Source of the DNA: Geobacter metallireducens GS-15
GTDB lineage: Bacteria > Desulfobacterota > Desulfuromonadia > Geobacterales > Geobacteraceae
Assembly: GCF_000012925.1 (NCBI RefSeq)
Contig: NC_007517.1
Span: 30,001 to 62,000, forward strand
DNA length: 32,000 nt
Direction: 5' to 3'
Part shown: positions 29,364 through 29,547 of the stretch, one piece after another
Position numbering within the stretch: the stretch's first letter is position 1
Layout: every line of letters begins with the position of its first letter
The notes under the pieces: generated by a model
The model's database searches: none
What the model saw: only the letters and a program-made list of their open reading frames with translations
What the model was told of the DNA's origin: nothing
Made by a program: the position numbers and the translations under genes

Positions 29364-29547
29364 GTTGCTTGTATGTTTCAGTAACCGGTTATATGTTCTC
29401 CAGAATTGGACACGACAGCTTGGTCGTTGCTTGGGCCAATTGAGCCCGTCACAGAGCGTAATGCGTCGTGTCCATCTTTCCTCAACCCGAACGGTTGCTT
29501 GGGCCGAAACGAGCCCGAATTTTCGCAAGAAAGGGACTGGAGAGAAT
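29364..29547 (+). ncRNA. putative IS110 bridge/guide RNA region, copy B
   Basis: 184-nt non-coding left end with a 10-bp stem (29407-16 / 29465-74) closing a loop. That loop carries GTTGCTTG (equal to the element's first 8 nt) and CACAGAGC (reverse complement of 30527-30534 near the right end). A second similar module follows at about 29475-29545. Confidence 0.45.

What the first reader, a model, noticed from the sequence alone, without database searches (positions are those of the whole stretch)
29364..29547. Left-end non-coding region of the IS110 element looks like a two-loop bridge RNA whose loop sequences match both IS termini
The 184 nt between each element's left end and the transposase ATG is non-coding (mirror copy at 29079-29262). 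By eye it forms two similar modules. Module 1 has a 10-bp stem, TGGACACGAC (29407-29416) with GTCGTGTCCA (29465-29474). This stem closes a 48-nt internal loop capped by a GGGC/GCCC mini-hairpin (29433-29447). The 5' side of the loop carries GTTGCTTG (29426-29433), identical to the first 8 nt of the element (29364-29371). The 3' side carries CACAGAGC (29450-29457), the reverse complement of GCTCTGTG (30527-30534), which lies 2 nt from the right end. One loop could therefore pair with opposite strands on either side of a circularised right-end/left-end junction (...GCTCTGTG-TT-GTTGCTTG...). Module 2 repeats the core GTTGCTTGGGCC-N5-GAGCCCG (29494-29517; module 1 has N4 at 29426-29448) with different flanks. 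Its 5' side, ACGGTTGCT (29491-29499), equals 30521-30529 near the right end. A possible closing helix, TCTTTCC (29475-29481) with GGAGAGA (29539-29545), would occlude the transposase RBS. IS110-family recombinases are known to use a bispecific bridge/seek RNA encoded in the non-coding end, with one donor-binding and one target-binding loop. This layout fits that model, and the guide assignments for this element would be new.
Basis: partly seen in the sequence, partly recalled or inferred. Interest (0 to 1): 0.7.

Follow-up and report, generated by a model that had tools for sequence, protein, structure and literature searches.

The report
Bridge RNA of insertion sequence ISGme8

Summary
The region is a bridge RNA, but the guide assignment and the element limits are wrong.

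- **Element:** two identical head-to-head copies of ISGme8, an IS110-family element of Geobacter metallireducens.
- **True limits:** CT core 29368-29369, body 29370-30527, CT core 30528-30529. GTTG (29364-67) and CTGTGTT (30530-36) are host DNA, shared only because both copies sit in the same target motif. A third copy has CCGTGTT there.
- **Loop 1 binds the target:** GTCGTTGCT (29423-31) equals the left flank plus core. CACAGAG (29450-56) is the reverse complement of core plus right flank.
- **Loop 2 binds the donor:** ACGGTTGC (29491-98) equals the right end plus the first core base. AU...GCAAG (29519-20, 29525-29) reads CTTGTAT at the left end.
- **Structure:** across 59 homologues 97% of cells pair and 19 of 24 pairs show compensatory changes.
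- **Guide covariation:** right target guides match their own flanks at 4.6 of 5 positions, against 1.4 for swapped partners.
- **Homology:** a covariance model built without the window hits it at 88.5 bits. It also hits the experimentally validated IS621 bridge RNA (E = 2e-8).
- **Target:** the GTTGCTYN octamer-repeat sites described in 2009.

Verdict: a clean, ordinary member of a known family. Low novelty.

The parts
29360..29367 (+). Left target (host flank) of copy B, CTCTGTTG. The last 4-5 bases are read by the left target guide.
   Evidence: It differs between copies (CTCC/CTCT/CTCA + GTTG). Homologues show variable sequence 5' of CT|TGTAT.
29368..29369 (+). Left CT core dinucleotide of copy B
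   Evidence: Conserved CT|TGTAT in 80 homologue loci. Same in IS621.
29370..30527 (+). Body of ISGme8 copy B (1158 bp)
   Evidence: Copy comparison. L081 differs at only 4 positions, all inside the ORF.
29372..29377 (+). -10 box TATGTT of the junction promoter, complete only in the circle
   Evidence: TTGACT-17 nt-TATGTT across the RE-CT-LE junction. No promoter-like site upstream in the integrated state.
29407..29538 (+). Structured bridge RNA (target-binding loop, linker, donor-binding loop)
   Evidence: Covariance-model hit of 88.5 bits, E = 5e-21, full length.
29408..29416 (+). Basal stem of the target-binding loop, 5' strand. It pairs with 29465-29473. An inner 4-bp helix follows, 29418-21 with 29461-64.
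   Evidence: 96% paired; 12 of 13 pairs have compensatory changes.
29423..29431 (+). Left target guide GTCGTTGCT, equal to the top strand of left target plus core
   Evidence: Matches the flank CGTTG+CT (copy A, L081) or GTTG+CT (copy B). Family-wide LTG/flank covariation.
29433..29447 (+). Apical hairpin of the target-binding loop (GGGC/GCCC)
   Evidence: 97% paired; 3 of 4 pairs are compensatory.
29450..29456 (+). Right target guide CACAGAG, the reverse complement of core CT plus CTGTG
   Evidence: 7 of 7 match at both window copies and 6 of 7 at L081. Family mean 4.61 of 5 against 1.38 for swapped partners.
29457..29458 (+). Handshake guide of the target loop (CG). The C can pair with the last base (G30527) of the right end.
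   Evidence: Position is equivalent to IS621 nt 81-82. The C is conserved in the alignment. This is an inference.
29475..29485 (+). Linker between the loops. It is pyrimidine-rich and complementary to the ribosome-binding site at 29539-45.
   Evidence: Duplex of -9.5 kcal/mol. Family mean -7.47 against -6.27 with permuted partners, 0 of 200 as low.
29486..29488 (+). Basal stem of the donor-binding loop (CCC). It pairs with GGG at 29533-29535.
   Evidence: 99% paired, nearly invariant.
29491..29498 (+). Left donor guide ACGGTTGC, equal to right end ACGGTTG plus the first core base. T29499 also matches the second core base.
   Evidence: Identical to 30521-30528/9. Guide and right end covary in homologues: A/G, T/C and TTG/TGG changes.
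29501..29516 (+). Apical hairpin of the donor-binding loop
   Evidence: 98% paired; 3 of 4 pairs are compensatory.
29519..29529 (+). Right donor guide, discontiguous: AU (29519-20) ... GCAAG (29525-29). It reads CTTGTAT (core plus left end).
   Evidence: Same layout as IS621 A157-U158 / G161-G165. AU and GCAAG are invariant or nearly so in 59 sequences.
29548..30504 (+). ISGme8 recombinase, 318 aa
   Evidence: Pfam DEDD_Tnp_IS110 and Transposase_20. PDB IS621 E = 9.5e-38, ISCro4 E = 2.7e-41. Named ISGme8.
30509..30514 (+). -35 box TTGACT of the junction promoter
   Evidence: Conserved cTTGAc 15 nt before the core in homologues. 17-nt spacing.
30521..30529 (+). Left donor (right end ACGGTTG) plus right CT core
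30530..30536 (+). Right target (host flank) CTGTGTT
   Evidence: L081 has CCGTGTT here.
28097..29258 (-). ISGme8 copy A with both cores. Its bridge RNA lies at 29088-29219 on the minus strand.

Best explanation
Region 29370-29547, mirrored at 29079-29256, is the left end of ISGme8, an IS110-group insertion sequence of Geobacter metallireducens. It encodes a canonical IS621-type bridge RNA.

**Expression (inferred).** After excision the element forms a circle. The junction ...TTGACT-N15-CT-TG-TATGTT... creates a sigma-70 promoter. This promoter transcribes the bridge RNA and, downstream, the recombinase.

[quoted passage not shown] AU..GCAAG pairs discontiguously with the top strand of CT-TGTAT at the left end.

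**Recombination (inferred).** The DEDD/serine recombinase then exchanges strands at the CT core. This places the element inside one octamer of the host's multicopy GTTGCTYN repeat sites. In this window both arms of one inverted pair of such sites are occupied, which gives the head-to-head arrangement.

**What is shown here:** the structure, the covariation, the guide/flank and guide/end matches, and homology to the validated IS621 RNA and protein.

**What is inferred:** transcription, RNA-protein binding and catalysis.
For: **Protein.** DEDD_Tnp_IS110 and Transposase_20 domains. Homologous to the solved IS621 and ISCro4 bridge recombinases. Identified as ISGme8.

**Element limits.** Fixed by the conserved CT|TGTAT start and GTTG|CT end in 80 homologue loci. 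Also fixed by a third copy with a different right flank.

**Structure.** The RNAalifold consensus gives two stem / internal loop / hairpin modules. 97.2% of cells are paired and 19 of 24 pairs have compensatory changes. 0 of 500 shuffles reach this, and slid controls give 36-50%.

**Guide covariation over 59 distinct bridge RNAs.**
- Right target guide: 4.61 of 5 against 1.38 for swapped partners (maximum 1.94).
- Left target guide: 4.78 of 7 against 3.12 (maximum 3.52).
- Left donor guide tracks right-end substitutions.

**Homology.** A covariance model built without the window hits 29407-29538 at 88.5 bits, E = 5e-21. It also hits the IS621 bridge RNA upstream of an annotated IS621 transposase in E. 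coli at 34.2 bits, E = 2e-8, full length.

**Geometry.** It matches the published rules (PMC11208160; PMC11208158).

**Other.**
- Junction promoter TTGACT-17-TATGTT.
- The 2009 genome paper reports ISGme8 at a fixed distance from paired GTTGCTYN octamer sites (PMC2700814).
Against: - There is no expression or activity data for this element.
- The left target guide matches only 6-7 of 9 positions at the four sites seen. Position -5 is C, T or A in the host against C in the guide.
- The element lacks the stable 5' stem-loop found in IS621.
- The donor-loop handshake dinucleotide AA would pair with only one of the two target positions.
- Rfam has no family that matches, so there is no curated external model.
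Confidence: 0.93

Rival explanations
1. Module 1 is a donor loop whose two strands pair with the two IS termini across a circle junction ...GCTCTGTG-TT-GTTGCTTG.... Module 2 is a second loop of a different, possibly target, specificity.
For: The 8-mer identities are real. The two window copies share 29364-67 and 30530-36, so these bases look like part of the element.
Against: - L081 carries the same IS with CCGTGTT at the right flank.
- All homologues start at CT|TGTAT and end at GTTG|CT.
- Loop 1 guides covary with variable flanks.
- Loop 2 is near-invariant, like the IS ends.
- The strand geometry is opposite to the IS621 rule.
- The model aligns loop 1 with the IS621 target-binding loop.
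Confidence: 0.03
2. The region is only a structured 5' leader that controls recombinase translation through an anti-Shine-Dalgarno helix, with no guide function.
For: The linker is complementary to the ribosome-binding site: -9.5 kcal/mol in the window, and the family mean is more stable than with permuted partners.
Against: This does not explain why the internal-loop bases covary with flanking DNA and with the IS ends. It also does not explain the homology to the IS621 bridge RNA. Translational occlusion can coexist with guide function.
Confidence: 0.02
3. The guide-like matches are a by-product of insertion into a repeat that resembles the IS right end (GTTGCT occurs in the target, the right end and both loops). 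They would then be sequence echoes and not functional guides.
For: The left target and left donor guides share GUUGCU. The host target is a GTTGCTYN repeat. The window is in the top class for similarity between these two guides.
Against: The right target guide CACAGAG has no counterpart in the IS ends, yet it matches the flank 7 of 7. In homologues with unrelated targets the same positions match their own flanks.
Confidence: 0.02

Closest known systems
IS621 bridge RNA and recombinase (E. coli; Durrant et al. 2024 PMC11208160; Hiraizumi et al. 2024 PMC11208158)
   Same: - Encoded in the left end, upstream of a DEDD/Tnp recombinase.
- The order is target loop first, donor loop second.
- 9-nt left target guide ending in the core, and a right target guide ending in AG.
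- 8-nt left donor guide.
- Discontiguous right donor guide AU..GCAAG reading CTTGTAT.
- CT core, and a left end starting TGTAT.
- Junction promoter split between the right and left ends.
- The covariance model from this family hits the IS621 RNA at E = 2e-8.
- Protein match at E = 9.5e-38.
   Different: - No stable 5' stem-loop; the leader is only 38 nt.
- All 7 positions of the right target guide pair, against 4 in wild-type IS621.
- 4 looped-out bases in the right donor guide, against 2.
- The right end is ACGGTTG instead of ACAGTAT.
- The target is a GTTGCTYN octamer repeat, not the ATCGGGC-CT-AC site in a repeated E. coli sequence seen in locus L083.
- The left target and left donor guides share GUUGCU.
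ISCro4 bridge recombinase (PDB 9t56)
   Same: It is the best solved-structure match to the recombinase (E = 2.7e-41, full length).
   Different: Only the protein was compared. Its RNA was not examined here.
IS1111-type seekRNA (Siddiquee et al. 2024, PMC11187229)
   Same: The principle is the same: an RNA from the non-coding region guides a DEDD transposase to a specific site.
   Different: According to Durrant et al.'s classification, in IS1111-group elements the RNA lies downstream of the transposase, and these elements have subterminal inverted repeats. Here the RNA is upstream, and the Durrant supplement lists ISGme8 as 'LE / IS110'.

Membership tests
IS110-group (IS621-type) bridge RNA | Encoded in the non-coding left end, upstream of a recombinase with DEDD (RuvC-like) and Tnp (Transposase_20) domains | tested here: met
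   PDB matches to IS621 and ISCro4.
IS110-group (IS621-type) bridge RNA | Two modules, each made of basal stem, internal loop and apical hairpin, conserved with compensatory changes | tested here: met
   97.2% paired, 19 of 24 pairs compensatory, 0 of 500 shuffles.
IS110-group (IS621-type) bridge RNA | Loop 1: the 5' strand equals the top strand of left target plus core, and the 3' strand is the reverse complement of core plus right target. Both covary with the flanks. | tested here: met
   In the window the left target guide matches 6-7 of 9 and the right target guide 7 of 7.
IS110-group (IS621-type) bridge RNA | Loop 2: the 5' strand equals the right end plus core, and the 3' strand pairs discontiguously with core plus the left end | tested here: met
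   ACGGTTGC(T) equals 30521-29. AU..GCAAG reads CTTGTAT as in IS621. Guide and right-end substitutions covary.
IS110-group (IS621-type) bridge RNA | CT core dinucleotide at both element ends | tested here: met
IS110-group (IS621-type) bridge RNA | Sequence and structure homology to an experimentally validated bridge RNA | tested here: met
   Model R1, built without the window, scores 88.5 bits on the window. It scores 34.2 bits, E = 2e-8, on the IS621 bridge RNA in E. coli locus L083.
IS110-group (IS621-type) bridge RNA | Promoter reconstituted across the RE-LE junction of the circle | tested here: met
   Met at sequence level only: TTGACT-17-TATGTT, with a conserved -35 in homologues. Activity is not testable here.
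IS110-group (IS621-type) bridge RNA | 5' stem-loop preceding the target-binding loop (conserved but dispensable in IS621) | tested here: not met
   The 38-nt leader folds at about 0 kcal/mol. Several homologues also lack it. It is not a defining feature for function.
IS110-group (IS621-type) bridge RNA | The RNA is expressed, binds the recombinase and directs recombination | not testable with these tools
   No expression or biochemical data are available here.
Rfam curated RNA family | A hit at or near the gathering threshold | tested here: not met
   Only chance snoRNA-like hits appear inside the ORF. No Rfam family matched, and I did not check whether Rfam holds a bridge RNA family at all.
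IS1111-type seekRNA | RNA encoded downstream of the transposase, with subterminal inverted repeats | tested here: not met
   Only 23 nt lie between the stop codon and the core. The RNA is upstream.

The most novel reading that the evidence does not exclude
ISGme8 may be specialised on a host repeat (GTTGCTYN octamers) that mimics its own right end, so its target and donor left guides share GUUGCU. Either loop might then engage either substrate ('half-match' recognition). This could favour paired head-to-head insertions at both arms of an inverted site, or rearrangements between copies. It would make ISGme8 a natural test case for target/donor cross-recognition by a bridge RNA.
Probability: 0.12. 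Interest if true: 0.45.

Novelty: new member of a known kind. Interest (0 to 1): 0.25.

Why it matters
The analysis gives a base-by-base guide map for a named but uncharacterised bridge-RNA element. It also supplies a mechanistic reason for a 2009 observation: ISGme8 sits at a fixed distance from paired GTTGCTYN repeat sites in G. metallireducens.

There is a practical caution too. Two IS110 copies in the same target motif make the element look 4-7 nt longer at each end, and this swaps the apparent roles of the loops. Apart from these points, the finding adds one more orthologue to a family with thousands of predicted members.

Tried and rejected
- **Rfam scan of 27900-30700 at E up to 10.** It gave only chance snoRNA-like hits in the ORF, so no curated bridge RNA model was usable.
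- **Single-sequence minimum-free-energy fold.** It gave z = -2.1 and paired the guides with each other. It was not informative on its own, and the alignment-based structure replaced it.
- **First count of structure pairs.** Two helices were shifted by one column through my own typing error. I repeated it correctly.
- **Automatic left-end detection.** It picked the wrong TGTAT-like motif in the window. I fixed this by hand from the copy comparison.
- **Search for unoccupied target sites in the window.** None was found beyond the two occupied ones.
- **Promoter upstream of the integrated copies.** None was found.
Considered and rejected (see the rival explanations).
- **Not attempted.** Closer relatives (72-96% identity) were also not fetched, since the evidence was already sufficient.

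Full report
**1. What is in the window.**

Two copies of a roughly 1.17-kb element lie head to head. They were reported as arms 28090-29266 and 29360-30536, 1177 nt, 100% complementary. Each carries a 318-aa ORF (29548-30504 on the plus strand) with Pfam DEDD_Tnp_IS110 and Transposase_20 domains.

The protein is full-length homologous to two solved bridge recombinases. These are ISCro4 (9t56, E = 2.7e-41) and IS621 (8wt6, E = 9.5e-38). An exact-sequence look-up names it 'IS110-like element ISGme8 family transposase' of Geobacter metallireducens.

**2. Where the element really ends.**

I fetched 80 genomic loci that encode relatives at 51-67% protein identity.
- Upstream of the gene, nearly all share the motif CT|TGTAT(C/G)TT. 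The sequence 5' of CT differs between genomes and between copies in one genome.
- Downstream, nearly all end ...A(C/G)AC(A/G)GTTG|CT, followed by variable sequence.

In the window these motifs place the cores at 29368-69 and 30528-29. The body is then 29370-30527.

A third ISGme8 copy from the same species (L081) differs from the window body at only 4 positions, all inside the ORF. It is flanked by ...CTCCGTTG-CT-[IS]-CT-CCGTGTT.... Its right flank differs from the window's CTGTGTT. This shows directly that these bases are host DNA.

The two window copies share GTTG on the left and CTGTGTT on the right only because both sit in the same target motif, CTCYGTTG-CT-CTGTGTT. That made the element look 4 nt longer on the left and 7 nt longer on the right.

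**3. Structure.**

I aligned 59 distinct left-end regions. RNAalifold gives two similar modules.
- **Module 1:** a 9-bp basal stem and a 4-bp inner helix, an internal loop, and a 4-bp apical hairpin.
- **Module 2:** a 3-bp basal stem, an internal loop, and a 4-bp apical hairpin.

On this structure 97.2% of cells form standard pairs, and 19 of 24 pairs have changes on both sides. None of 500 column shuffles reaches any measure, and sliding the 3' partners by 1-3 columns drops pairing to 36-50%.

In window coordinates the elements are:

| Element | Coordinates |
|---|---|
| Module 1 basal stem | 29408-16 with 29465-73 |
| Module 1 inner helix | 29418-21 with 29461-64 |
| Module 1 hairpin | 29433-47 |
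| Module 2 basal stem | 29486-88 with 29533-35 |
| Module 2 hairpin | 29501-16 |

**4. Guides.**

The published rules for IS621 are as follows (PMC11208160; PMC11208158).
- Loop 1 binds the target and loop 2 binds the donor.
- The 5' strand of each loop has the sequence of the top strand left of and including the core.
- The 3' strand is complementary to the top strand from the core rightwards.
- The right donor guide is discontiguous.

The window fits these rules position by position.

| Guide | Coordinates | Sequence | Match |
|---|---|---|---|
| Left target guide | 29423-31 | GTCGTTGCT | Flank CGTTG-CT: 7 nt at copy A and L081, 6 nt at copy B |
| Right target guide | 29450-56 | CACAGAG | Reverse complement of CT-CTGTG: 7 of 7 at both window copies, 6 of 7 at L081 |
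| Left donor guide | 29491-98 | ACGGTTGC | Right end ACGGTTG plus C (30521-28); T29499 also matches the second core base |
| Right donor guide | 29519-20 and 29525-29 | AU and GCAAG | CT-TGTAT, as IS621 A157-U158 / G161-G165 read CTTGTAT |

Across 59 distinct bridge RNAs and 68 insertion sites, guides match their own flanks far better than those of swapped partners.
- The five non-core bases of the right target guide match their own flank at 4.61 of 5. Swapped partners give 1.38, with a maximum of 1.94 in 1000 trials.
- The seven non-core bases of the left target guide match at 4.78 of 7. Swapped partners give 3.12, with a maximum of 3.52.

The left donor guide follows substitutions in the right end:
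- ACAG against ACGG;
- GTTG against GTCG;
- TTG against TGG;
- GTTG against GCTG.

**5.

- GTTGCTTG at 29426-33 is the left target guide GTTGCT followed by UG, the start of the hairpin. The same string at 29364-71 is host GTTG, core CT, then TG, the first two bases of the element.
- CACAGAGC at 29450-57 is the right target guide plus the first handshake base C. That C is complementary to G30527, the last base of the right end. So the 8-mer matches the recombinant right junction G-CT-CTGTG.
- The repeated core GTTGCTTGGGCC-N-GAGCCCG arises for two reasons. The left target and left donor guides both end in GUUGCU, and both are followed by the conserved hairpin.

**6. Independent model test.**

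A covariance model was built from 58 homologues with the window left out. It hits 29407-29538 (+) and 29088-29219 (-) at 88.5 bits, E = 5e-21, full length. Nothing else in the 32 kb scores below E = 0.8.

As a positive control I used the IS621 bridge RNA sequence, which I recalled from memory. I verified it as 100% identical to E. coli DNA lying directly upstream of an annotated 'IS110-like element IS621 family transposase'. The model hits this RNA at 34.2 bits, E = 2e-8, aligning both loops. Rfam itself returned no relevant family.

**7. Expression logic.**

Joining the right end to the left end through one CT gives TTGACT-17 nt-TATGTT (30509-14 and 29372-77). The -35 box is conserved in homologues, where it usually overlaps the recombinase stop codon. 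No promoter-like site precedes the RNA in the integrated state. This is the known IS110/IS621 arrangement. Activity here is inferred, not shown.

Across 56 homologues the mean linker/RBS duplex is -7.47 kcal/mol. Permuted partners give -6.27 (0 of 200 as low) and shuffled linkers give -6.01. This is modest support for a conserved anti-Shine-Dalgarno pairing. I rate it plausible but unproven.

**8. The target.**

With both copies removed, the intergenic region reads ...TCATTGA-AACACAGAGCAACGGAG-...about 90 nt...-CTCTGTTGCTCTGTGTT-ATTAG.... This is an inverted pair of sites, each made of tandem octamers (GTTGCTCC GTTGCTCT GTGTT...).

The G. metallireducens genome paper describes 48 'class 1' sequences. 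These are paired sites on opposite strands, with four tandem octamers of consensus GTTGCTYN. [quoted passage not shown] The target-binding loop explains that fixed position. Here both sites of one pair are occupied.

**9. Comparison and novelty.**

The element works like IS621. It also passes every defining membership test that can be run in silico. The differences are minor:
- no stable 5' stem-loop;
- a fully paired 7-nt right target guide;
- four looped-out bases in the right donor guide instead of two;
- left guides that share GUUGCU, because the host repeat resembles the element's right end.

ISGme8 already appears as 'LE / IS110' in the supplement of the bridge RNA paper. I found no paper giving its guide map. 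I therefore rate it a new, well-documented member of a known kind, with low interest.

The only reading with some novelty is that the similarity between target and donor left halves allows cross-recognition and paired insertions. I have no evidence for that beyond the sequence similarity.

Noticed in passing
L083 1589-1730 (E. coli IS621 locus); also L062 and L064 upstream regions: There is a partial tandem duplication of the left end up to the left target guide (...ATCGGGCCT|TGTATTATCC... occurs twice). This looks like one copy inserted into the guide-coding DNA of another. That DNA has the same sequence as the target, so it is itself a target.
   Followed up: no
28097-29258 and 29368-30529; reconstructed empty site: With both ISs removed, the 150-nt intergenic stretch folds into one long hairpin (-43.4 kcal/mol). 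Its arms are the two inverted octamer-repeat sites. The function of these 'class 1' paired sites in Geobacter is unknown; IHF/HU binding was proposed in 2009.
   Followed up: partly
loci L001-L080, just after the recombinase gene: In most homologues the recombinase stop codon TGA lies inside the -35 box (cTTGAc) of the junction promoter, at a fixed 15 nt before the core. In the window the -35 box is separate, at 30509-14.
   Followed up: partly
28089-28109 minus strand (and 30517-30537 plus): The right end plus the right flank forms a hairpin, GAACACGG/CTGTGTT(T). At copy A a T-rich run follows, and the scan scores it as terminator-like. It may be a side effect of the target resembling the reverse complement of the right end.
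   Followed up: no
L015, L027, L030: Upstream of the recombinase gene L027 keeps the donor-binding loop and lacks the target-binding loop; in L015 and L030 only a remnant of the donor-binding loop is recognisable, and unrelated sequence takes the place of the target-binding loop in all three. These are probably truncated or interrupted copies.
   Followed up: no
L005, L006, L010: The bridge RNA lies about 130-170 nt further upstream of the aligned recombinase start than in the other loci. An in-frame coding-like stretch fills the gap, so there may be an N-terminal extension.
   Followed up: no
29370-29406: ISGme8 has only a 38-nt leader with no stable 5' stem-loop (about 0 kcal/mol). Many homologues have strong ones, down to -45 kcal/mol.
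   Followed up: partly
L082 1-18: A metagenome-run contig carries the identical IS at the same right flank as copy A. Its left flank is CTCCGTTGCTCAGTTG-CT, so the octamers are in the opposite order. This is either strain variation in the octamer array or an assembly effect. It puts an A opposite guide position -5.
   Followed up: no
28492-28583 (+) and 30043-30134 (-): Weak Rfam SNORD116-like hits (25.7 bits, E = 0.13) lie inside the recombinase ORF. I judge them to be chance.
   Followed up: no
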